Source of the DNA: a virus
Taxonomy: Duplodnaviria; Heunggongvirae; Uroviricota; Caudoviricetes
Length of the DNA stretch: 37,661 nt
Strand: one strand, 5' to 3'
Virus record (IMG/VR): IMGVR_UViG_2526164599_000009
Span: 1 to 37,661 of that record
Under the pieces are notes generated by a model. The model made no database searches. It was not told the origin of the DNA and saw nothing but the letters and a program-made list of their open reading frames with translations. Shown here piece after piece: positions 6,274-32,238 of the stretch; positions within the stretch are counted from its first letter, which is position 1; every line of letters starts with the position of its first letter. Both the position numbers and the translations under genes were made by a program.

Positions 6274-9096
6274 ATGACGGCAGAGTACATCAGGGACTGG
6301 CAACAACCGCGCCACGCAGTGGGGCGTGAAGGAACGGGGATCCCCGCTCCTGAATCCGCGCTTTCCTCCTGGCTGGATGCCTACCGGGTAGAGAACGAGC
6401 GCCGCCAGGAAATGGCTGATGCGGCGTTCTCCGCAACGCCGCTGGGCAACCTGATTAATAAAAGCCTGGACGCACAGGAAAAACAGGACAAAACCATCAC
6501 ACTGGCAGGAGACGCCAGAAAACAGGCACGCGGTGCGGTGGATGAAGCCATGGCCTCGCTGCGCCTGCTGCCGTCCTATCTGCGCGATCCGCTTATTCGC
6601 CACCTCTCCTTCCTGCGCAAAAAACAGGAAGCCGATCGTCAGAAAGGCAAAAAGAGCTGGCAGGCTGAACGCTACGCGCGCGGAAACCTGCGCAAAATAT
6701 TCGAACGTCTGGAGCGCACCGATCACCGCTGGCTGACACAGGGTTATCGCTCCCTTGCCGGACGCGAACGCCTGGACGATTTGCTTTACCTGCCGCAGCT
6801 CAACAAACACCAGATACAGACGCTGGCCACCATGACGGCGGCGATGTTCAGCAGCACCTTCGAAAAACTCTGCGATGGCTTTGGCGCGACCGATGGCGAA
6901 CTGACCATGGATGTAACGCTGAAGGCGTATCAGATGCTGGCCCGCATGGCGTTACACCTGCACGCCATGCCTCCACATTATGACGCACTGACAACAGACA
7001 AAGACCGGAGGAACGAACCGGACACGGAGCTGCTGCCGGGCGCAATCCTTCGCCTGACCTGTGCGGAATGGTGGAAACGCAAACTGTGGCTGTTACGTTG
7101 CGAGTGGAGAGAAGAACAACTCCGCGCCGCCTGTCTGGTTTCCAGAAAAACATCGCCCTATCTGAGCCAGGACGCGTTAAGCGAGTTTCGCGCACAGCGC
7201 GAGAAAACACGCGATTTCCTGAAAAGTTTCATGCTGGAAAACGAAGACGGGTTCACGATTGATCTCGAGACAGTGTATTACGCGGGAGTAAGTAACCCGG
7301 TTCACCGTAAGGCAGAAATGATGGCCACCATGAAGGGGCTGGAACTTCTGGCCGAAGCCCGTGGCGACAAAGCGGTGTTTCTGACTGTCACCTGCCCGTC
7401 AAAATACCACGCTACAACAGAGAACGGTCATCCGAATCCCAAATGGAACGGGGCCACCATGCGCGACTCCAGCGATTACCTGGTTAACACGTTTTTTGCG
7501 GCGGTCCGCAAGAAACTGAACCGCGACGGCCTGCGCTGGTATGGCATCCGCACGGTGGAGCCTCACCATGACGGCACCGTGCACTGGCATATGATGGTCT
7601 TTGCTCATCCGGAAGAAATCGACACCATTGTGTCCCACACCCGCGATATTGCCATTCAGGAAGATCGTCACGAGCTGGGCGATGATATTACTCCGCGCTT
7701 TAAGGCGGAGTATGTCGACGGCTCAAAAGGCACGCCAACCAGCTACATCGCCACCTACATCGGAAAAAACCTGGACAGCCGCGCCGTGGATGGCATCGAC
7801 CCGAAAACAGGCAAACCACGCGTTGACCACGAAACCGGAAAATCAATGACCGAGAGCGTGGAACGCGCCATTGGCTGGGCGCGCCTTCACCGGGTCCGCC
7901 AGTTCCAGTTCTTTGGCATCCCCTCCCGTCAGGTGTGGCGTGAACTGCGTCGCCTTGCCAGCCAGATGGCACGCAACCCGGAAGGCCCGCAACGGCTGAA
8001 GGATGACGCAATGGATGCGGTTCTTGCTGCCGCTGATGCCGGATGTTTTGCCACCTACATTGAGAAACAGGGCGGCGTACTTGTTCCACGCAAAGACTAC
8101 CTGATTCGCACCGCCTACGACCTCGCCGATGAGCTGAACGATTACGGCGAACAGAGCGTACAGATTTACGGGATCTGGTCACCACTCATCGGGGAATCCT
8201 CCCGTGTGTGCACGCATCCGGATAACTGGAAGCTGGTAAGACGCAAACCGGAAGCGGAAGACAGCGCCCGCGAAAATGGTTTTGACCTTCAGGGCGGCCC
8301 TGCCGCCCCTTGGACTCGTGGCAATAACTGTCCCCGTGTACAGGAAACAGACAACAACGGGACAGAACAGCCGGAAGAACGGCCAGCACCGTGGCCGCAG
8401 CTCCCTGACGGCGTTGAAGTGAACGAATGGATGCGCTCACTGAAACGGCACGAACGCCGGGCGCTGATGCGTTCGCTTCGTGACAAACAGGCAAAAAACA
8501 GCCGTGATGAAATGCAGAGCTGGACACAGAGCCGCAAACAGCAGCGGCCTTTGCCTGATAACCACGAATTACTCGCTAAAGAATGGCGGGAGTCTGCTGA
8601 ATCTCTCGGCCTGCATATCGGTGAACAGCAGATGCAGCACCTGTTACGGGGCGGCAGTCTGTACGTTGACGGCAGCATCATTGCACCGCAGGGATTTGAA
8701 ATTGTACGCAAACCGGATACCCGACCGGACAGCCGGATCACGCAGCTCTGGCAGCGCCTGAGCCGTAACCACGGCGTAAGCAGCACGGAGATCCGCCATA
8801 ACCCGGTCGCCAGCTATCTGGAACAGCTGGGGGCATCAGACCCCGAAGCCGCCGCACGCCTGGCATCCACACTTCAGCAAGACCAGAACACCATGAAAAC
8901 ACCCGTTACCGTGCTTTCTGACATGCTGCGCGCCATCCGCGACGCAGAGCACGCACAGAGAATCAGTGAAACCACTGAACGCGCCCACCGCAAAGCAGAC
9001 CTGCTGCGGGGTGGCCTGACCAGTGGAAACAAAAAACAGACAGAAACGGGATTCACAAATCCCGTAAATGAGCAAAAAACGCGCCGCGATATATGA
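6274..9096 (+). CDS. A: Rolling-circle replication initiator (P2 gpA-like, HUH endonuclease)
   Basis: 940-aa ORF; HUH-type motif HWHMMVF and tyrosine motif YIATYIGKNLD; position matches P2 A; about 180 aa longer than P2 A as recalled. Confidence 0.85.
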   Translation: MTAEYIRDWQQPRHAVGREGTGIPAPESALSSWLDAYRVENERRQEMADAAFSATPLGNLINKSLDAQEKQDKTITLAGDARKQARGAVDEAMASLRLLPSYLRDPLIRHLSFLRKKQEADRQKGKKSWQAERYARGNLRKIFERLERTDHRWLTQGYRSLAGRERLDDLLYLPQLNKHQIQTLATMTAAMFSSTFEKLCDGFGATDGELTMDVTLKAYQMLARMALHLHAMPPHYDALTTDKDRRNEPDTELLPGAILRLTCAEWWKRKLWLLRCEWREEQLRAACLVSRKTSPYLSQDALSEFRAQREKTRDFLKSFMLENEDGFTIDLETVYYAGVSNPVHRKAEMMATMKGLELLAEARGDKAVFLTVTCPSKYHATTENGHPNPKWNGATMRDSSDYLVNTFFAAVRKKLNRDGLRWYGIRTVEPHHDGTVHWHMMVFAHPEEIDTIVSHTRDIAIQEDRHELGDDITPRFKAEYVDGSKGTPTSYIATYIGKNLDSRAVDGIDPKTGKPRVDHETGKSMTESVERAIGWARLHRVRQFQFFGIPSRQVWRELRRLASQMARNPEGPQRLKDDAMDAVLAAADAGCFATYIEKQGGVLVPRKDYLIRTAYDLADELNDYGEQSVQIYGIWSPLIGESSRVCTHPDNWKLVRRKPEAEDSARENGFDLQGGPAAPWTRGNNCPRVQETDNNGTEQPEERPAPWPQLPDGVEVNEWMRSLKRHERRALMRSLRDKQAKNSRDEMQSWTQSRKQQRPLPDNHELLAKEWRESAESLGLHIGEQQMQHLLRGGSLYVDGSIIAPQGFEIVRKPDTRPDSRITQLWQRLSRNHGVSSTEIRHNPVASYLEQLGASDPEAAARLASTLQQDQNTMKTPVTVLSDMLRAIRDAEHAQRISETTERAHRKADLLRGGLTSGNKKQTETGFTNPVNEQKTRRDI

Positions 9097-9144
9097 AGCG
9101 CGCATAAAACAGGCAAAAACGGGATTTCAGAATCCCGTAAACGA
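9041..9144. repeat. Two copies of a palindrome-containing repeat (candidate parC-like centromere/operator)
   Basis: ACGGGATT-N6-AATCCCGT palindrome at 9046-9067 (inside the 3' end of A) and again at 9119-9140, 73 bp apart, just upstream of the parM-like start. Confidence 0.35.
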
Positions 9145-9172
9145 TTAATTAATCAACATAAGGAAAAGCGAC

Positions 9173-10132
9173 ATGAAAATTTGTATCGATGACGGCTCCA
9201 CCAACATCAAGCTGGCATGGACTGAGAACGGCGAACGCCGCAACGCCATCAGCCCGAACAGCTTCAAGTCGGAATGGTCTGCGCCGTTCGGTGGCACGCA
9301 GCCCGCGAACTACATGCTTGATGGCGTGCGCTATGGTTTTGATCCGGTCAGCGATCGCTTTGTCCAGACGACCGACACGCAATACCAGTACAGCGATGTG
9401 AATGTCATTGCCATTCATCACGCGCTGGTCAAATCAGGCATCACACCACAGGAAGTGGATGTGGTTGTCACCCTGCCACTGAGCGAATATTTCGACACAA
9501 ACGCACAGCCGGACATGCCCAACATCAACCGCAAAAAAGCGAACGTTATGCGCCCGGTGGAGTACCAGAACGGCGAAGCATTCACTATCCGTAACGTGCG
9601 GGTTATGCCTGAATCCATTCCGGCTGGCTTTAAGGCACTGGCTGACATGAGTCCGTTTGAATCCCTGCTGATTGTGGATTTGGGCGGAACCACGCTGGAT
9701 GTGGCAAAGGTTCAGGGGCAACTGGCAGGTATCAGCCAGGTGTTTTGCGACCCACACGTAGGCGTTTCTCTGATGGCCGATGCCGTACTGTCGGTGATGG
9801 CCACTAACGGTATGCGCACCAGTCACCACATCGCCAATACCATTATCGAACATCGCCATGATGAAGCCTGGCTGCGCCAGCACATCCACAATGACGCGCA
9901 TTACGCCAGCCTGATGGCGGTTATTCGTGAAAAGGAAGAAACACTGAAACAACGCGTGATCCGCGCGCTGGCGGGTTTTTCGGGTTACGGGCGGGTGATG
10001 GTTGTCGGTGGCGGGGCGGAGATTGTGGCACCCGCTATCCGCGAAGCCTGCGGAGTTAATGCGACTTTCATCGCGGACGGGGTGCCACAGTTTGCTCTGG
10101 TTAATGGGCTGTACGCAATGGACAAGGAGTAA
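9173..10132 (+). CDS. parM: ParM/StbA-family actin-like segregation ATPase
   Basis: 319-aa ORF; MKICIDDGSTNIKLAW, SDVNVIAIHHAL, VMPESIPAG, LIVDLGGTTLD and MVVGGGAE match the plasmid R1 ParM signature as recalled. Confidence 0.85.
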   Translation: MKICIDDGSTNIKLAWTENGERRNAISPNSFKSEWSAPFGGTQPANYMLDGVRYGFDPVSDRFVQTTDTQYQYSDVNVIAIHHALVKSGITPQEVDVVVTLPLSEYFDTNAQPDMPNINRKKANVMRPVEYQNGEAFTIRNVRVMPESIPAGFKALADMSPFESLLIVDLGGTTLDVAKVQGQLAGISQVFCDPHVGVSLMADAVLSVMATNGMRTSHHIANTIIEHRHDEAWLRQHIHNDAHYASLMAVIREKEETLKQRVIRALAGFSGYGRVMVVGGGAEIVAPAIREACGVNATFIADGVPQFALVNGLYAMDKE

Positions 10133-10136
10133 ACCA

Positions 10137-10448
10137 ATGACGACACCAACCAGACGAATAAGTTTCTATCTGAAGCCCGCCGCCGTCAAGAACGAAGGCG
10201 AAGCATGCGCCTGGCTGGACAGCCTTACACCAGAAGCCCGCAAAAGCGGCCAACGTGTGGCTTTTCTGGCCGGGCTGGCACTTCTGAAAATGAATCCGGC
10301 AGAGGCTTACCGACTGGCTGCATGGGCTGATGATGAAGCGTTATCAGTGACACAAACCAGGACAGAACGCCCCGCATCACAGCCAGTATCAACCGCACAG
10401 ATAACCAGTCAGATGGCCGGAAATATCCGGGCGTTATTTCCCGAATAA
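10137..10448 (+). CDS. parR: ParR-like centromere-binding adaptor (putative)
   Basis: ATG 10137 after RBS AGGAG; RRISFYLKP...LDSLTPEARKSGQRVAFLAGLALL...IRALFPE parallels R1 ParR as recalled; directly downstream of parM. Confidence 0.65.
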   Translation: MTTPTRRISFYLKPAAVKNEGEACAWLDSLTPEARKSGQRVAFLAGLALLKMNPAEAYRLAAWADDEALSVTQTRTERPASQPVSTAQITSQMAGNIRALFPE

Positions 10449-10511
10449 TACAACATCAGGGCGCATCCGCCCTGATGACTTTAATCCGGGAACACAAACA
10501 AAGGGGACACA

Positions 10512-10844
10512 ATGCAACACATTGACAGAGAAAAAGCGCAGCGACTGATTGAGCGGATGGAAGCGCTGGCGAAAGAAGAAAATGTCAACATCCAAAAAAT
10601 AGCTGAATGTGGCCAGATAGTTCTTCGTCGTGAAAAAGACCTCAAACAACTGATGTCTGGCGAAACCAGCAAAACATGGACTTCAGGCGAGGAAACGATT
10701 TATTGCAGCTTCTGCAATAAATCCCAGTACGAAGTCACAAAGGTGATTGCTGGACCGTCTGTTTACATCTGCAATGAGTGCGTGGATTTGTGCAATGAAA
10801 TTATCAGGAGAGAAGTGGCAGACAAAAAGGGAAAAAACACATGA
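10512..10844 (+). CDS. Small protein with ClpX-type C4 zinc-binding domain
   Basis: [38 protein letters not shown] is near-identical in pattern to the ClpX N-terminal zinc finger; about 65-aa helical N-terminal region; no AAA+ module. Confidence 0.75.
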
Positions 10845-11155
10845 ACAGAAAACAAAAACAAGAGTTGAAATACTTTTTACGTAAAGAAATTGCCAGGCTT
10901 GAAGATGCAGAATCACGATCATCAGAAATTCCGTTCGGAATGGATATCAACGACGCCCGTATGCTCCAGGCATACCGTATAGCTCAGGCTGTACTACAGG
11001 CAAAACCGTCAGATGGACTGGTTAGAGCAGTACGTTTCTATGAACTGGTAAAACGTGAGAATCCGCCAACCGAAACCGGAGCATGGAAAGACGCTGTTGA
11101 CTGGGTGCTCAAAGAGGCTTGCCAAGCTGTAAACATTGACATCAAAGGAGAGTGA
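10841..11155 (+). CDS. Hypothetical protein
   Basis: 104-aa ORF overlapping the upstream stop by 4 bp. Confidence 0.5.
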
Positions 11156-11156
11156 T

Positions 11157-11444
11157 ATGGCAACTTTGCAGGAATTAATCGACCTGACGCCAGAACAGGA
11201 AAAAGCGTGGAATCGCCTTGTGAAGGCTGTAAAGGATTTCAGGGCAGCCGGAGGAAAGTTTTATAGCGTCCTGGACACGCTGAGCGCATACAACGGCGAG
11301 CACGTTGCCAGCATTGATAACGATAAGGGCTACCACACTGCAAGCGTTTATATGCCTAGCATTGATGCGCCAGGGCTAACCAGTTGGGCTGATGATTGGC
11401 ACGGCATCACGCTGAAAGATGGCGTTGAAGTGGATGAGGACTAA
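11157..11444 (+). CDS. Hypothetical acidic protein
   Basis: ATG 11157 after RBS AAAGGAG. Confidence 0.5.
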   Translation: MATLQELIDLTPEQEKAWNRLVKAVKDFRAAGGKFYSVLDTLSAYNGEHVASIDNDKGYHTASVYMPSIDAPGLTSWADDWHGITLKDGVEVDED

Positions 11445-11447
11445 CAC

Positions 11448-11708
11448 ATGACAACTTTCACCGACAAAGAACTGATTAAAGAAATCAAAGAGCGCATAGG
11501 CAGCTTGGACGTTCGAGACAATATTGAGCGCCGTGCTTATGAAATTGCACTGGCATCACTGGAAGCAGAGCCAGTAGCATGGATGCATGTAAATAACGGC
11601 ATCGGAATACCAGCAATAACAAGGAGTAAAGAGGTTGCAGAGAGTTGGTTATCAAAAGGCTGGTATGTCCAACCCTTGCATCTGGCCCAGCCTGCATCAA
11701 AGCTATAG
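11448..11708 (+). CDS. Hypothetical protein
   Basis: 86-aa ORF 3 bp after previous stop; last gene of the operon. Confidence 0.5.
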   Translation: MTTFTDKELIKEIKERIGSLDVRDNIERRAYEIALASLEAEPVAWMHVNNGIGIPAITRSKEVAESWLSKGWYVQPLHLAQPASKL

Positions 11709-12199: not shown

Positions 12200-13246
12200 T
12201 CAGGATGTGGGCTGGGTATCTAACAGTGCGTAAGGGTTAAAGCGGATCACCTCTTCGCCAAGCCAGTCATTGATATGCTTCATGGCCTCCATGACGGGCA
12301 TCAGCTCGTTAATTGCGTAAACCCGCGCGGCCTTCTCCACATCACCAAACGCACTTTTTTCGCCCGGCATCGCCCCCATCAGTTGCGGCGGAACGCGGTG
12401 CGCAGCCAGCACATCATCACGGGATGCCGCCTTAACATTCATGAACTCATCTTTTGCGGTGATCTGCTGGAACGGCAAAATTTGCACCCCCTCTTTGCCC
12501 CCGTTGGGCGCATGAATGAGCACGTTTTTAAACGCACCACCACCACGTGCCCCCTGTAGCGTTTCTTTCAGGGAGTCCATGCTTTCGCGGTTTACCTGCG
12601 CTGCACCGATGTAGATGATGCACCCGGCGTGGGATCCGTTGTCGTAGTACAGTTTTCTGAACATGTCCGCCGAATGAGAAAGGCTGGCCGAGAGTAATGC
12701 GCCAAGATATTCCGGCATGCCGTAAATTTCCTGGTTAATGTCCGGATTCATCAGGTGGCACACTTTGCCAGGGCGAAACTGAAACGCGTCCTTGCCATCC
12801 TGCACATACCACCATGATTCAAGATCGCTTCCGCGTCGCACGTATTTCGCCAGTGCGTGCCGTAATTTAAGTGGTTCGCCGAGCATATTACTCCGAAGCT
12901 CAAGGAATGCGTTACCGAACACAAACCAGTCCAGCGCCAGCGCCGAGAAATCCTGCCGGGAAAGCAGCGGGTGCGGGATGTAGCAACCGAGCAATACATT
13001 GCGCTTAAAGTAAAGCGCAGACTGATGCCAGGACGTTTGCCGGGCGGCTCTTGCCAGACCGTACCAGTCCACCGGGGTTTCATACCACCGCCCGTTATCA
13101 GCACAGTACATATTGTCCAGCAGGTCATGCCCGGTCAGGCGATAAGGACCATCAAATGTGAATGCACTGAGCGATGATTCTTTCCTGAGCGCATCAGCGA
13201 GATCAATGCGTGAACTCATGCGCACTTTTTTATTTTTTCTGCTCAT
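12200..13246 (-). CDS. Q: Portal protein (P2 gpQ-like)
   Basis: 348-aa ORF, size and position as P2 Q; downstream of and overlapping the terminase large subunit gene. Confidence 0.85.
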   Translation of the reverse strand: MSRKNKKVRMSSRIDLADALRKESSLSAFTFDGPYRLTGHDLLDNMYCADNGRWYETPVDWYGLARAARQTSWHQSALYFKRNVLLGCYIPHPLLSRQDFSALALDWFVFGNAFLELRSNMLGEPLKLRHALAKYVRRGSDLESWWYVQDGKDAFQFRPGKVCHLMNPDINQEIYGMPEYLGALLSASLSHSADMFRKLYYDNGSHAGCIIYIGAAQVNRESMDSLKETLQGARGGGAFKNVLIHAPNGGKEGVQILPFQQITAKDEFMNVKAASRDDVLAAHRVPPQLMGAMPGEKSAFGDVEKAARVYAINELMPVMEAMKHINDWLGEEVIRFNPYALLDTQPTS

Positions 13247-29430: not shown

Positions 29431-32238
29431 TCAATCTTTATCGTAAAAACTGCCACGCCCGGCACGGGCGCGCCGTTCCATCTCTGCCCTGACCATTTCA
29501 CCGACCAGTTTCGCCAGTTCGCGGGGATTCTGTGTAACAACGTTATGCAGATGAACATGAATTTCACCACCAAATCCGGAGGCAACAGGCTCCCGGTTAC
29601 GGGAAGTTACAGGAACTGATGCCACTGGAGATCGTATGGCCTCCGCCACCGGGCGGGAGCTGGCCGCAACAACAGGGACCAGCGCCGGAGGCAGCGGAGC
29701 CGGGACCACGGGTGTGATATTAATTGCGGGGGCAGGCTTACTGGCCTGCGCAATCTTCCGCTCCTGCCACTCCCCACGAACAGCAAGTGCTCGGGGCAGG
29801 TTTTTAAAGACAATATCGCCGGGGCCAATGCGTTTTTTCGTCTCCTCAACCAGCTTACCTGTGTTATCAGCAATTTTGCTGAGTCTGCGTAGCGTCCCGG
29901 TATTGCTGTCTGTGAGCGGTTTGTTGTCTTTGGGTTTATCACCTCCGGTGCCATTGCCATTTTCCACAGGCTTCGGCGGATTGATTTTCGCCAGGTCCCC
30001 TTGAAGTAAGGCAACCTTGTCCTGAAGAATGGCCGCACGCTGTGCGTCTTCGATTTTCTTTCTCGCCCTTTCCGCTTCATCCGGAAGAACACCGAGTTTT
30101 TCAAGTATCCACGCCAGCGTATCCAGCAACATTTTTGCAGGCGTCAGAACAAGCTGTAACGCGCCACCAAGAACGTTACCGAATATCTCGCCAGCACTGG
30201 TACATTTATCCAGCGTTTCCTTGCTGGACTCCATCGGTGACAGCAGCGATTTAAACCAGTTAAACACCTGGCTGATCCCGCTTCCGATTGCGTCAAAAAC
30301 AGGGCCAAACCGTTCAAAGGTTTCACGCAACGGGTTCAGCCTTTCCATAATCCCGCTGAACACCCCGGCAAAAAATGCCCTGATGGGATCCCAGTATTTC
30401 CAGATAAGAACGGCAGCGCCGGCAAGCGCAGCCACGATAAGACTAACCGGACTGAACAGCGCCCCGATAGCTCCTCCCAGCAAAGAAACAGAACCCGTCA
30501 CCATTCCCCACAGCGCAGGCAACACCCTGATGACATTCATTGACCGGGTAAGAATGTCGAAACCAAGACGCAAGGTGGCCAGCTTCCCGTAAAGCACCCC
30601 AATAACCAGCGACAACGAGCCAATCGTTGCAGTCATTGCCAGCAACGCACCGCTTGCTATCAGTAGCTGGCGCGTCAGTACCGGATGGGCCTGCGCCAGC
30701 GAGGTGATTTTTTCAAGCACCCGCGTGAGCCACTGCGTGACAGAACGCAGCGGACCGTCAACCAGATCACTGATGCGAATACGAAGACCTTCCCATGCGC
30801 TGTCGAGATTTTTCAGGTCTCCATCAAGATTATCGGCCATTACTTTTGCAACGCGATCGGCCTCTCCCCTTGCCCCCTGCAATTCTCTGGTCAGTTTTTG
30901 CAGTTCTCCTGAACCAGCCGCCGCAACAAGCGTCTGCAAACCAACGAACGCCTCTTCTCCGGCGATGTCCTTGAAGAAGGAGACCTGGTCCACCTGTCCG
31001 TATTTTTGTGTCGCCTTATAGAGATCAAGCAGCACATCCTCCATCGGGCGCATTTTGCCTCTGGCGTCAGCAACTGACACCCCCTGCTCTTTCAGTGCAT
31101 CAGCCGCAGCTTTTGGCGGTGATGCAAGGCGGGACAGACTTGCGCGCATGGCCGTACCAGCATCGCTTCCGCGAAGACCATTATTGGCAAGCATCCCGGC
31201 CATGGCCGCCGCTTCTTCAAGACTGATACCAAGTTTTGCGGCAACCGGACCGGTATACTTCATGGTTTCGCCCAGCGCGCGTAAATCAGTATTGGTCCGG
31301 GTGAATGCTGCTGTCAGCGTATCGCCAACCCGGTCCATTTGATCGGCTGTCAGGTTGAACTGTGTGAGGATATTGGAGCCTATATCAGCCGTCTCGCCGA
31401 GTTCGACGCCACCTGCCAGCGCCATATTAAGAACACCGGGCAATGCGGCCTGAATGGCCTGCGGAGTAAAACCAGCCATTGCCAGAAAGCTCTGCCCACT
31501 GGCGGCATCACTCGCAGTAAACTGTGTTTCAGAACCAAGTTTTAACGCCTGCTCACGCAGCGCCTTAAACTGCGGGCTGTTTTTGTCGATTCGCGTCAGT
31601 GCCTGAACGCGGGACATCTCTTTGCCGAACCCGATCGCAGGCTGCAAAAAACGCCCGGCAGCATAGCCGCCAGCCGCTGCAGCACCAATTGCCAGCGCAC
31701 CACCTGTTTTCAGTTTTCCCGCGGTTTCCTGCGCGCGCGAATACCGCTCACGCGCCCGCGTTACACGCGCAAGCGCCTGCCGTTCGCGTTCAAGCTGGTT
31801 GTTGTACTGTTCGGTGCGTCTGATGGCCTGCTGGATGGTGTTATCGCTGCCTGTCAGGGAAATGCCGTGGCGTTTCAGCTCTCCGCCAAGTTCCCGCATT
31901 TTCTGAATTTCCCGTGTGCGCGATTCATTCAGGCGTTCAAGCCGGCTGCTTAACTGCTGCATCAGCTTTTGTTGTTTTTCGCTGAGCACTGTACCCGTGC
32001 GTTGTAACTGATTAAGGGCGTTAAGCTGGCGTCGTGCTTTCACGATACCCGCATCCGCTTTACTGACAGCGTCGCGGGCGCGCTCAAATGAACGCGCCTG
32101 ACGCTCGAGATTTTTGATCGCCCCCTGCGTTCGCTGGATGGAGTCACCAAACTGCCCCATCAGGCGGCGGGCGTTTTCGGCAGGCCGGGTCAGCCTGTCA
32201 ACGGCGCTGAAAGCGACCCGGATATCAAGAGTCTTCAT
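29431..32238 (-). CDS. T: Tail tape measure protein (P2 gpT-like)
   Basis: roughly 935-aa ORF from ATG 32238 (RBS GGGAG) or 947 aa from GTG 32274; coiled-coil N-terminus, Gly/Ala-rich hydrophobic middle. Confidence 0.85.
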   Translation of the reverse strand: MKTLDIRVAFSAVDRLTRPAENARRLMGQFGDSIQRTQGAIKNLERQARSFERARDAVSKADAGIVKARRQLNALNQLQRTGTVLSEKQQKLMQQLSSRLERLNESRTREIQKMRELGGELKRHGISLTGSDNTIQQAIRRTEQYNNQLERERQALARVTRARERYSRAQETAGKLKTGGALAIGAAAAGGYAAGRFLQPAIGFGKEMSRVQALTRIDKNSPQFKALREQALKLGSETQFTASDAASGQSFLAMAGFTPQAIQAALPGVLNMALAGGVELGETADIGSNILTQFNLTADQMDRVGDTLTAAFTRTNTDLRALGETMKYTGPVAAKLGISLEEAAAMAGMLANNGLRGSDAGTAMRASLSRLASPPKAAADALKEQGVSVADARGKMRPMEDVLLDLYKATQKYGQVDQVSFFKDIAGEEAFVGLQTLVAAAGSGELQKLTRELQGARGEADRVAKVMADNLDGDLKNLDSAWEGLRIRISDLVDGPLRSVTQWLTRVLEKITSLAQAHPVLTRQLLIASGALLAMTATIGSLSLVIGVLYGKLATLRLGFDILTRSMNVIRVLPALWGMVTGSVSLLGGAIGALFSPVSLIVAALAGAAVLIWKYWDPIRAFFAGVFSGIMERLNPLRETFERFGPVFDAIGSGISQVFNWFKSLLSPMESSKETLDKCTSAGEIFGNVLGGALQLVLTPAKMLLDTLAWILEKLGVLPDEAERARKKIEDAQRAAILQDKVALLQGDLAKINPPKPVENGNGTGGDKPKDNKPLTDSNTGTLRRLSKIADNTGKLVEETKKRIGPGDIVFKNLPRALAVRGEWQERKIAQASKPAPAINITPVVPAPLPPALVPVVAASSRPVAEAIRSPVASVPVTSRNREPVASGFGGEIHVHLHNVVTQNPRELAKLVGEMVRAEMERRARAGRGSFYDKD

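What the first reader, a model, noticed from the sequence alone, without database searches (positions are those of the whole stretch)
9041..9144. Twin ACGGGATT-N6-AATCCCGT palindromes bridging the end of gene A and the parM start
Two near-identical 30-bp units, each with an 8-bp perfect inverted repeat, lie 73 bp apart: one inside the last codons of A, the other 30 bp upstream of the parM ATG. They are candidates for a parC-like ParR binding site and autoregulated promoter. The replication protein here is also about 180 aa longer than P2 A as I recall it, so the first repeat falls in that C-terminal extension.
Basis: seen in the sequence. Interest (0 to 1): 0.5.

Follow-up and report, generated by a model that had tools for sequence, protein, structure and literature searches.

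The report
Probable centromere of a prophage ParMR cassette
Two identical 20-bp palindromes just upstream of an actin-like partition gene pair in a P2-like E. coli prophage are most likely the DNA sites that the ParR adaptor protein grips, making this a compact and undescribed version of a well-known plasmid centromere.

Summary
The palindromes are ACGGGATT-N4-AATCCCGT (not N6) at 9046-9065 and 9119-9138. They start 73 bp apart, and each lies inside a 42-nt direct repeat.

The window is an integrated P88-like (Xuanwuvirus, P2-like) prophage. Directly downstream lie a true R1-type ParM (9173-10132) and an R1/pB171-type ParR (10137-10448).

The palindromes travel with the parMR module, not with gene A:
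- In relatives, A stops before or inside unit 1, or has a different tail, and homology resumes at 9032.
- Fels-2, which has no parMR, has no such palindromes.

Compared with a Hafnia-associated relative, the junction is 79% identical, against 63% at parM four-fold degenerate sites. The arms are 28/32 identical, the loops 4/8, and the 73-bp spacing is kept. The ParR N-terminal segment TRRISFYLKP, taken to be its DNA-reading strand, is invariant.

The region has the strongest 10.4-bp A-tract phasing in the window, which predicts curvature like that reported for R1 parC.

No RNA covariation and no Rfam match were found, and no convincing sigma-70 promoter.

Best reading: a minimal two-site palindromic parC. 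ParR binding itself is untested. This is a new variant of a known kind and of moderate interest.

The parts
9030..9071 (.). Repeat unit 1: an A-rich leader plus palindrome 1 (ACGGGATT-CACA-AATCCCGT at 9046-9065)
   Evidence: families D1 and I14. In recombinant relatives L146 and L241, homology to the window starts at about 9032.
9103..9144 (.). Repeat unit 2: an A-rich leader plus palindrome 2 (ACGGGATT-TCAG-AATCCCGT at 9119-9138)
   Evidence: families D1 and I15. Unit 2 lies 73 bp from unit 1 in 103 of 104 distinct contexts.
9066..9118 (+). The 53-bp stretch between the palindromes. It holds the stop codon of A (9094-9096) and a weak promoter-like element (aTGAgc-N16-TATAtg, 9068-9095).
   Evidence: It is 80% identical to the Hafnia-associated relative, against 63% at neutral sites. 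No sigma-70 match reached 9/12. The candidate -10 is replaced in some E. coli variants.
9026..9151 (+). Helically phased A-tracts, predicting intrinsic DNA curvature across both units
   Evidence: The AA-dinucleotide power at 10.0-11.0 bp is the highest of 1502 windows in the sequence, and 0 of 2000 shuffles reached it. The signal is also present in relatives L095 and L062 and in R1-type and IncL/M parC regions.
9173..10132 (+). parM, actin-like partition ATPase (319 aa), with Shine-Dalgarno AAGGA at 9160-9164
   Evidence: Pfam StbA_N E 6e-82 and ParM C-terminal domain E 1.3e-68. R1 ParM structure 1mwk E 9e-93. It is 95% aa identical to the Hafnia-associated copy while four-fold sites are 63% identical.
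10137..10448 (+). parR, centromere-binding adaptor (103 aa). The N-terminal segment TRRISFYLKP is the presumed ribbon, and the tail NIRALFPE is the presumed ParM-binding end.
   Evidence: Pfam PF10784 E 1.6e-24. hhalign against an R1-type ParR gives probability 97.4%, E 9.5e-12. pB171 ParR structure 2JD3 E 0.0085. The N-terminal segment is invariant in all alleles.
10454..10477 (.). GC-rich hairpin directly after parR. It marks the right end of the conserved cassette, before the variable cargo.
   Evidence: Phage matches end at window positions 10448-10474.
6274..9096 (+). Gene A (rolling-circle replication endonuclease, 940 aa). In this window its last codons overlap unit 1.
   Evidence: Pfam Phage_GPA E 1.9e-131. 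The position of its stop codon varies among relatives.

Best explanation
The twin palindromes, with their A-rich leaders, are the cis-acting centromere/operator (parC) of a type II ParMRC partition cassette carried by a P88-like, P2-related prophage.

Inferred mechanism:
- ParR is a ribbon-helix-helix protein. It binds each 20-bp palindrome through its invariant N-terminal strand TRRISFYLKP, probably as two dimers, one per 8-bp half-site.
- The two sites lie 73 bp apart, about 7 helical turns, so they face the same side of the DNA. The DNA between them is bent by phased A-tracts, so the two ParR complexes can form one compact, U-shaped segrosome.
- The conserved C-terminal tail of ParR (NIRALFPE) then captures the ends of ParM filaments, which push copies of the phage DNA apart.
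- ParR bound at unit 2, and next to the intervening region, may also lower parMR transcription. This step is the weakest.

Shown here: the repeats, their uniqueness, their linkage to the parMR module, their conservation above the neutral rate, the identity of ParM and ParR, and the predicted curvature. Inferred: ParR binding, stoichiometry, segrosome geometry and regulation.

Because the prophage is almost always chromosomal, the cassette most likely acts on excised, infecting or replicating circular phage DNA rather than on a stable plasmid.
For: - ParM and ParR are true homologues of the R1/pB171 proteins.
- In homologous systems from phage D6 and from IncFII (R1-like), IncL/M, IncFIA/FIC (two examples) and IncI-gamma/K1 plasmids, the 150-250 bp upstream of parM always carries repeated motifs. 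In most of them (L009, L010, L012, L013) the repeats flank a promoter-like core. For R1 this is documented as two sets of five 11-bp iterons around a 39-bp promoter region, strongly curved, and bound by ParR in two separate complexes (PMC2241845).
- The 42-nt repeat is the only notable repeat family within 8300-10700, and the palindrome occurs nowhere else in the window.
- Linkage to the module: in L146 and L241 the tail of A is different and homology resumes at about 9032. In L062, A stops before unit 1. In the Hafnia-associated phage, A stops inside the unit 1 loop. Frameshifted A tails are common, yet unit 1 is kept. Fels-2, which has no parMR, has no such palindrome.
- Selection: against the Hafnia-associated relative the junction is 114/144 identical, compared with 63% at parM four-fold sites (p = 2e-5). 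The arms are 28/32 identical (p = 0.002) and the loops 4/8. Spacing is 73 bp in 103 of 104 contexts.
- The ParR segment TRRISFYLKP is invariant across alleles that are only 52-57% identical overall, and all of them keep the same half-site. D6 ParR has a different strand and different repeats.
- The region shows the strongest helical A-tract phasing in the window. The signal is conserved in relatives and is of the same size as in known parC regions.
- In IMG/VR the paired palindrome occurs only in P88-like contigs. Other hits are unrelated singletons.
Against: - There is no direct evidence that ParR binds these sites.
- Only two sites (four half-sites) are present, against ten iterons in R1. 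They are inverted rather than direct repeats, so a full ParR ring or helix as seen for R1, pB171 or pSK41 may not form.
- No convincing sigma-70 promoter lies within or between the units, so the operator role is unsupported. The genes may simply be read through from the early operon.
- Phylogenetic depth is shallow: ParM is 95-100% identical in all relatives found. Conservation and co-occurrence could therefore partly reflect recent common ancestry.
- No ParR strand variant exists against which to test co-variation.
- On the minus strand both hairpins are followed by T-rich tails and score as terminator-like.
Confidence: 0.66

Rival explanations
1. The hairpins are tandem intrinsic terminators on the minus strand. 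They would stop antisense transcription coming from the cargo or late region before it enters replication gene A.
For: The scan calls both sites terminator-like on the minus strand: an 8-bp stem, a 4-nt loop and tails TTTTTGCCTGT and TTCTGTCTGT. The hairpins fold at about -10 kcal/mol. The T-rich tails are conserved in the Hafnia-associated relative.
Against: All genes from 9173 to about 11708 are on the plus strand, and the nearest minus-strand gene, the portal gene, ends at 12200. A stronger hairpin already follows parR at 10454-10477. The stems are weak for terminators. The two stems keep the same sequence as each other and across clades, with no compensatory changes (0 of 16 pairs). That pattern points to sequence-specific recognition rather than structure alone. 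The T-tails are equally explained as phased A-tracts.
Confidence: 0.08
2. The palindromes act as plus-strand RNA hairpins in the early-operon mRNA. They could serve as processing or stability elements at the A-parM junction, or as regulators of translation of parM or of a 26-codon small ORF.
For: Both hairpins fold stably in plus-strand RNA (-11.0 and -10.7 kcal/mol, z-scores about -4). The arms are conserved and the loops vary. In unit 2 the common variants keep pairing through G-U. A 26-codon ORF (9068-9148) is intact in 70 of 75 sequences.
Against: No pair shows a change on both sides, and the covariation score does not exceed the shuffles (492 of 500 shuffles reach it). In unit 1 the common variants give C-A mismatches on the plus strand: 18 of 74 distinct sequences at one pair. 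The Hafnia-associated changes break plus-strand pairs in both units. There is no Rfam match. Neither hairpin overlaps the parM Shine-Dalgarno sequence or start codon. Most substitutions in the small ORF change the peptide.
Confidence: 0.1
3. The palindromes are bound by a protein other than ParR (a phage regulator, A itself, or a host factor), or they act in replication, for example as a single-strand hairpin near the origin.
For: P2-type origins lie inside gene A (from my own knowledge, not tested here), and unit 1 overlaps the end of A in this window. The binding partner has not been identified experimentally.
Against: The palindromes follow parMR, not A: the A tails are swapped or truncated upstream of them. 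Fels-2, a P2-like phage without parMR, has no such site in or after A. The last ~140 aa of A and the palindromes are found only where parMR is present.
Confidence: 0.07
4. The repeat is only a duplicated coding segment (peptide K-T-G-F-x-N-P-V-N, present in the A tail and in the small ORF), and the dyad symmetry has no function.
For: Read in the same relative frame, both units encode TGF(T/Q)NPVN. A variant with a 1-nt deletion fuses A to the small ORF so that both are translated in one protein.
Against: A perfect 8+8 dyad in both copies is not expected from coding constraint. A's tail is frameshifted or ends early in many relatives while the DNA of unit 1 is kept. The peptide varies freely while the GGGA/TCCC cores are essentially invariant.
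Confidence: 0.03

Closest known systems
parC of the plasmid R1 (and NR1/R100 stb) ParMRC system
   Same: The gene order is the same: cis site, then parM, then parR. ParM is homologous (E 9e-93 to 1mwk) and so is ParR (hhalign 97.4%). In both, two separated ParR-binding blocks flank a central stretch of 39 bp (R1) or 53 bp (here). Both show helically phased, curved DNA. The C-terminal ParR motif is shared: KNAMKLIN in R1 and GNIRALFPE here.
   Different: R1 has ten 11-bp direct iterons (two sets of five) around a clear promoter. Here there are only two units, each a 20-bp inverted repeat, and no clear promoter. ParM is only 46-52% identical. The host replicon is an integrating phage, not a low-copy plasmid.
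ParMR-type cassette of the plasmid prophage D6 (P1-like)
   Same: It is phage-borne. ParM is 48% identical, ParR belongs to the same family, and there are repeats upstream of parM.
   Different: D6 is a plasmid prophage, for which partition has an obvious role. Its repeats are direct ATTCTCAA-type motifs spread over about 200 bp, and its ParR N-terminal strand differs (KKVMIYLRP).
AlpA/AlpC/alpS of the Corynebacterium glutamicum prophage CGP3
   Same: An integrated prophage encodes an actin-like filament protein and a DNA-binding adaptor that binds repeats upstream of its own operon. The system acts on excised circular phage DNA and is needed for efficient phage replication (PMC4446434). This is the best functional precedent for a partition-like system in an integrating phage.
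   Different: The proteins are not closely related. The gene order is reversed, with the adaptor first. alpS consists of 24 short TTAAnnG repeats rather than two palindromes.
pSK41 ParR-centromere (type II, Gram-positive)
   Same: From my own knowledge, not tested here: its centromere is built from 20-bp units, each bound by a ParR dimer-of-dimers. That matches the 20-bp size of the units here.
   Different: pSK41 has four contiguous tandem direct repeats. The proteins are only distantly related, and no comparison was run here.

Membership tests
Type II (ParMRC) partition system | Actin-like ATPase ParM | tested here: met
   Pfam StbA_N E 6e-82 and ParM C-terminal domain E 1.3e-68. PDB R1 ParM 1mwk E 9e-93 over residues 2-316.
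Type II (ParMRC) partition system | Small ribbon-helix-helix adaptor ParR encoded directly downstream of parM | tested here: met
   PF10784 E 1.6e-24. hhalign against an R1-type ParR gives 97.4%, E 9.5e-12. pB171 ParR 2JD3 E 0.0085. The AlphaFold monomer has low confidence (pLDDT 60.6), but its extended N-terminus plus two helices agree with the fold.
Type II (ParMRC) partition system | C-terminal ParR peptide that binds ParM | tested here: inconclusive
   The tail N-I-x-x-(L/F)-F-P-(E/D/K/Q) is conserved in all alleles (N, I, F and P invariant) and resembles the C-termini of R1 and IncL/M ParR. A helix is predicted at residues 87-100. The interaction itself is not testable here.
Type II (ParMRC) partition system | Cis-acting centromere made of repeated sites immediately upstream of parM | tested here: met
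   Two 42-nt repeats lie 34-143 nt upstream of the parM ATG. They are the only repeat family nearby, they stay linked to the module, and they are conserved above the neutral rate.
Type II (ParMRC) partition system | ParR binds the repeats specifically | not testable with these tools
   This needs EMSA, footprinting or ChIP. The only indirect support is that the ParR N-terminal strand is invariant wherever the half-site is kept.
Type II (ParMRC) partition system | Promoter of parMR embedded in parC and repressed by ParR | tested here: inconclusive
   No sigma-70 match reached 9/12. The weak candidates are TTCAGA-N16-ATTAAT, which overlaps unit 2, and aTGAgc-N16-TATAtg, between the units. The latter is not conserved in all variants.
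Type II (ParMRC) partition system | Stabilises an otherwise unstable replicon | not testable with these tools
   This needs a plasmid-loss assay. The natural host replicon is chromosomally integrated in 1454 of 1456 places.
R1-type parC specifically | Two clusters of five 11-bp direct iterons | tested here: not met
   There are only two units, each an inverted repeat with 8-bp arms and a 4-nt spacer. No 11-bp iteron series is present. An R1-like parC is shown for comparison (L012).
R1-type parC specifically | Intrinsically curved DNA | tested here: met
   The prediction rests on sequence only. The 10.4-bp AA periodicity is the highest in the window, with 0 of 2000 shuffles reaching it. Curvature was not measured.
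Rho-independent terminator | GC-rich hairpin followed by a U-tract, placed downstream of a transcription unit | tested here: inconclusive
   On the minus strand only, hairpin plus T-rich tail are present. However, no minus-strand gene lies within 3 kb upstream of them on that strand. On the plus strand there is no T-tract.
Known structured RNA family (Rfam) | Match to a covariance model, or covariation in the stems | tested here: not met
   There were no Rfam matches at E up to 1. None of the 16 pairs shows a change on both sides across 74 distinct sequences.

The most novel reading that the evidence does not exclude
A minimal parC of two palindromes serves a ParMR pair under strong purifying selection in an integrating P2-like prophage family found in about a quarter of complete E. 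coli genomes. In this reading the system is not a plasmid-maintenance device. It would work in the lytic or transient-episome phase to position or separate replicating phage circles, as AlpAC does for CGP3, or it would let the phage persist as a plasmid when integration fails. One 34.5-kb circular 'plasmid' record is such a phage genome.
Probability: 0.35. Interest if true: 0.6.

Novelty: new variant of a known kind. Interest (0 to 1): 0.42.

Why it matters
ParMRC is the textbook actin-like DNA segregation machine, and it has been studied almost only on plasmids. Here a close relative, with an unusually small and palindromic candidate centromere, sits in an integrating P2-like prophage present in 1308 of 5426 complete E. 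coli genomes, almost always on the chromosome.

ParM is kept at 95% amino-acid identity while synonymous sites have diverged to 63% identity, so the system appears to be functional.

If ParR binds these two sites, they give a very simple, easily mutated centromere. That would allow tests of how few ParR-binding sites can engage a ParM filament, and of what a partition system does for a phage that integrates. Searches of the open-access paper library found no description of this site.

Tried and rejected
- Rfam scan of 8800-9400 at E up to 1 found nothing.
- The covariation test of both hairpins on 74 distinct junction sequences found no compensatory change and no excess over shuffles. The RNA-structure reading therefore has no positive support.
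- The sigma-70 promoter scan of 8600-10600 found none. A more lenient scan gave only 8/12 candidates.
- The search for more distant relatives that would allow ParR/site co-variation did not succeed.
  - Two IMG/VR scans returned only ParM 94-100% identical to whichever query was used (99-100% to the window ParM, 94-95% to the Hafnia-associated ParM).
  - The species-representative genomes gave three loci.
  - The ParR homologue search returned only proteins with the same N-terminal strand.
  - Plasmid ParMs jump straight to 52% identity or less.
- The pattern scan for the palindrome in IMG/VR found it paired only in P88-like contigs. The other 40 loci were unrelated singletons, as expected by chance.
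- The AlphaFold2 model of monomeric ParR had low confidence (pLDDT 60.6), so no fold search was run on it.
- Phages with the same A tail but no parMR would have separated the two. None exists in the phage collection.
- A third ParR site between the units, or a 12-bp periodic series of half-sites, was considered. Reading the sequence gave no support for either.
- Ogr-type late promoter dyads, cox boxes and IHF sites were considered by eye only and not seen.
Full report
**Observation.** The sequence contains two perfect inverted repeats with 8-bp arms, ACGGGATT and AATCCCGT. They lie at 9046-9065 (spacer CACA) and 9119-9138 (spacer TCAG).

Each palindrome is the core of a longer 42-nt direct repeat, 9030-9071 and 9103-9144, which is 81% identical. 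The two repeats start 73 bp apart. Even with three mismatches allowed, the pattern occurs nowhere else in the 37.7-kb window. Chance expectation is 0.13 matches. It is also the only notable repeat family between 8300 and 10700.

Unit 1 lies in the last 17 codons of the 940-aa gene A (6274-9096). Unit 2 ends 34 nt before the ATG of the next gene at 9173, which has a Shine-Dalgarno sequence AAGGA at 9160-9164.

**Context.** The window is an integrated P88-like prophage (genus Xuanwuvirus, family Peduoviridae, P2-like).
- It starts with an integrase and matches E. coli chromosomes.
- The region 8600-10600 is 95-99% identical to phage P88 and 13 other phage records.
- Gene A carries the Phage_GPA domain (E 1.9e-131).
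- The gene at 9173-10132 is a true ParM: Pfam StbA_N E 6e-82, ParM C-terminal domain E 1.3e-68, and R1 ParM structure 1mwk E 9e-93.
- The gene at 10137-10448 is a ParR. It matches PF10784 at E 1.6e-24. A profile of its relatives aligns with an R1-type ParR at 97.4% probability (E 9.5e-12) and with the pB171 ParR structure 2JD3 (E 0.0085).
- A GC-rich hairpin at 10454-10477 closes the conserved cassette. After it comes variable cargo, then the portal and terminase genes on the other strand.

The cassette is present in 1308 of 5426 complete E. coli genomes. Of 1456 places, 1454 are chromosomal and 2 are on plasmids.

**What homologous systems look like.** I read the 300 bp upstream of parM in phage D6 and in five plasmid systems: IncL/M, two IncFIA/FIC, IncI-gamma/K1 and an R1-like IncFII. 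All carry repeated motifs there. In most of them (L009, L010, L012, L013) the repeats flank a promoter-like core. For R1 this is established: two sets of five 11-bp iterons sit around a 39-bp promoter region, the DNA is strongly curved, and ParR binds the two sets as separate complexes to give a U-shaped structure (PMC2241845). In the window, the twin units occupy the same position and have the same two-block layout, with 53 bp between the blocks.

**The palindromes belong to parMR, not to gene A.**
- Among 107 distinct contexts from IMG/VR, plasmids and genomes, the stop codon of A is usually 76 nt before parM. It can also lie 24, 101, 105, 133, 153 or 183 nt before it, through frameshifts or different tails.
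- In L062, A stops just before unit 1. In a Hafnia-associated phage (L094/L095), A stops inside the unit 1 loop.
- In L146 and L241 the end of A is a different sequence, and homology to the window resumes at about 9032, the first bases of unit 1.
- Fels-2 is a P2-like phage without parMR. Its A ends about 26 aa after the shared region, and it has no such palindrome.
- The last ~140 aa of A match only P88-like phages. It also means A's tail and parMR cannot be separated in the phage collection.

**Conservation.** The most distant relative found is the Hafnia-associated one.
- Its parM is 95% identical in protein, but only 63% identical at four-fold degenerate sites (149 sites). The neighbouring A tail is 60% identical in DNA.
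- The 143-bp junction is 114/144 identical (79%; p = 2e-5 against 63%).
- The palindrome arms are 28/32 identical (p = 0.002), and the loops only 4/8.
- The 73-bp spacing is kept there and in 103 of 104 E. coli-type contexts.
- Within the arms, the central GGGA/TCCC positions almost never vary. The outer positions tolerate single-sided transitions.

**ParR alleles.** ParR occurs as allele classes that are only 52-57% identical overall. All of them share the N-terminal segment TRRISFYLKP, taken here to be the DNA-reading ribbon of the ribbon-helix-helix fold. All share the C-terminal tail N-I-x-x-(L/F)-F-P, which resembles the C-termini of R1 and IncL/M ParR. All of these alleles sit next to the same half-site. 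D6 ParR has a different strand and different repeats.

**DNA shape.** The AA-dinucleotide periodicity at 10.0-11.0 bp over 9026-9151 is the highest of 1502 windows in the sequence, and no shuffle out of 2000 reached it. The signal is kept in the two most divergent relatives. It is as strong as in an R1-type and an IncL/M parC. This predicts intrinsic curvature. Seventy-three base pairs is close to seven helical turns, so the two palindromes face the same side of the DNA.

**Alternatives.**
- On the plus strand the hairpins have no T-tract, so they are not terminators for gene A.
- On the minus strand they score as terminator-like. However, no minus-strand gene lies within 3 kb on that side, a stronger hairpin follows parR, and the T-tails are the same bases as the phased A-tracts.
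- As RNA, both strands fold the hairpins at about -10 to -11 kcal/mol. On 74 distinct sequences, none of the 16 pairs shows a change on both sides, and covariation does not exceed the shuffles.
- The common variants give mismatches on the plus strand in unit 1 and on the minus strand in unit 2. Neither strand is consistently protected.
- Rfam has no match.
- The paired palindrome occurs in IMG/VR only in P88-like contigs.
- A 26-codon ORF (9068-9148) is usually open, but its peptide varies freely.

**Promoter.** The consensus scan finds none. There are two weak candidates: TTCAGA-N16-ATTAAT overlapping unit 2, and aTGAgc-N16-TATAtg between the units. The second lacks the key final T of the -10 hexamer, and in some E. 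coli variants it is replaced.

**Conclusion.** The most likely reading (about two in three) is that the twin units are the parC of this phage-borne ParMRC cassette. It would be a compact variant with two palindromic 20-bp ParR sites on bent DNA, in place of ten direct iterons. Binding, stoichiometry and regulation are inferred, not shown.

Because the element is almost always integrated, the cassette probably acts on circular phage DNA after infection or excision. The documented precedent is the AlpA/AlpC/alpS system of prophage CGP3 (PMC4446434).

No paper describing this site was found. It is a new variant of a known kind and of moderate interest.

Noticed in passing
window 9068-9148 (+): A 26-codon small ORF (MSKKRAAIYEARIKQAKTGFQNPVND) runs from just after unit 1 through unit 2 and ends 24 nt before parM. 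It is open at full length in 70 of 75 junction sequences, including the Hafnia-associated one. It has no obvious Shine-Dalgarno sequence, and most substitutions change the peptide. Read in the same relative frame, unit 1 in A's tail encodes ETGFTNPVN.
   Followed up: partly
window 10137-10448; loci L006, L007, P0032-P0060: ParR occurs as two or more allele classes that are only 52-57% identical in the middle of the protein. The first 18 residues are identical and the C-terminal tail (N-I-x-x-(L/F)-F-P) is conserved. Several phage matches to the window end at 10191, inside parR, which suggests recombination within the gene.
   Followed up: partly
plasmid record NZ_CP148288.1 (locus L177): A 34,461-bp circular, non-mobilizable 'plasmid' from a cat E. 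coli isolate is a P88-like phage genome with A, parM and parR. It could be an episomal prophage or an assembled replicative form.
   Followed up: no
E. coli complete genomes: The A-parM-parR junction is present in 1308 of 5426 complete E. coli genomes, with up to 3 copies per genome. Of 1456 places, 1454 are on chromosomes and 2 on plasmids.
   Followed up: partly
window 10454-10477: A GC-rich hairpin of 10 pairs (7 G-C, CATCAGGGCG-CATC-CGCCCTGATG) sits directly after the parR stop codon. Its T-rich tail is on the minus strand. It coincides with the point where related phages stop matching and the variable cargo begins.
   Followed up: partly
window 10512-10844 (+): The first cargo gene after parR encodes a 110-aa protein with a ClpX-type C4 zinc finger (Pfam PF06689, E 8e-18). 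The next three small ORFs (10841-11708) have no Pfam match.
   Followed up: no
window 8510-9031; loci L146, L241, L062: The C-terminal part of replication protein A is mosaic. Some relatives carry an unrelated tail, and many carry frameshifts near the end. This suggests the last residues of A are dispensable.
   Followed up: partly
window about 30226-30400: This is the second-strongest 10-11-bp AA-dinucleotide periodicity in the window, seen while testing the parC region.
   Followed up: no
locus L003 (NZ_JBQPOM010000071.1): A 226-kb contig labelled Vagococcus sp. carries a ParM 98% identical to the E. coli phage copy. This is more likely contamination or mislabelling than a Gram-positive host.
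   Followed up: no
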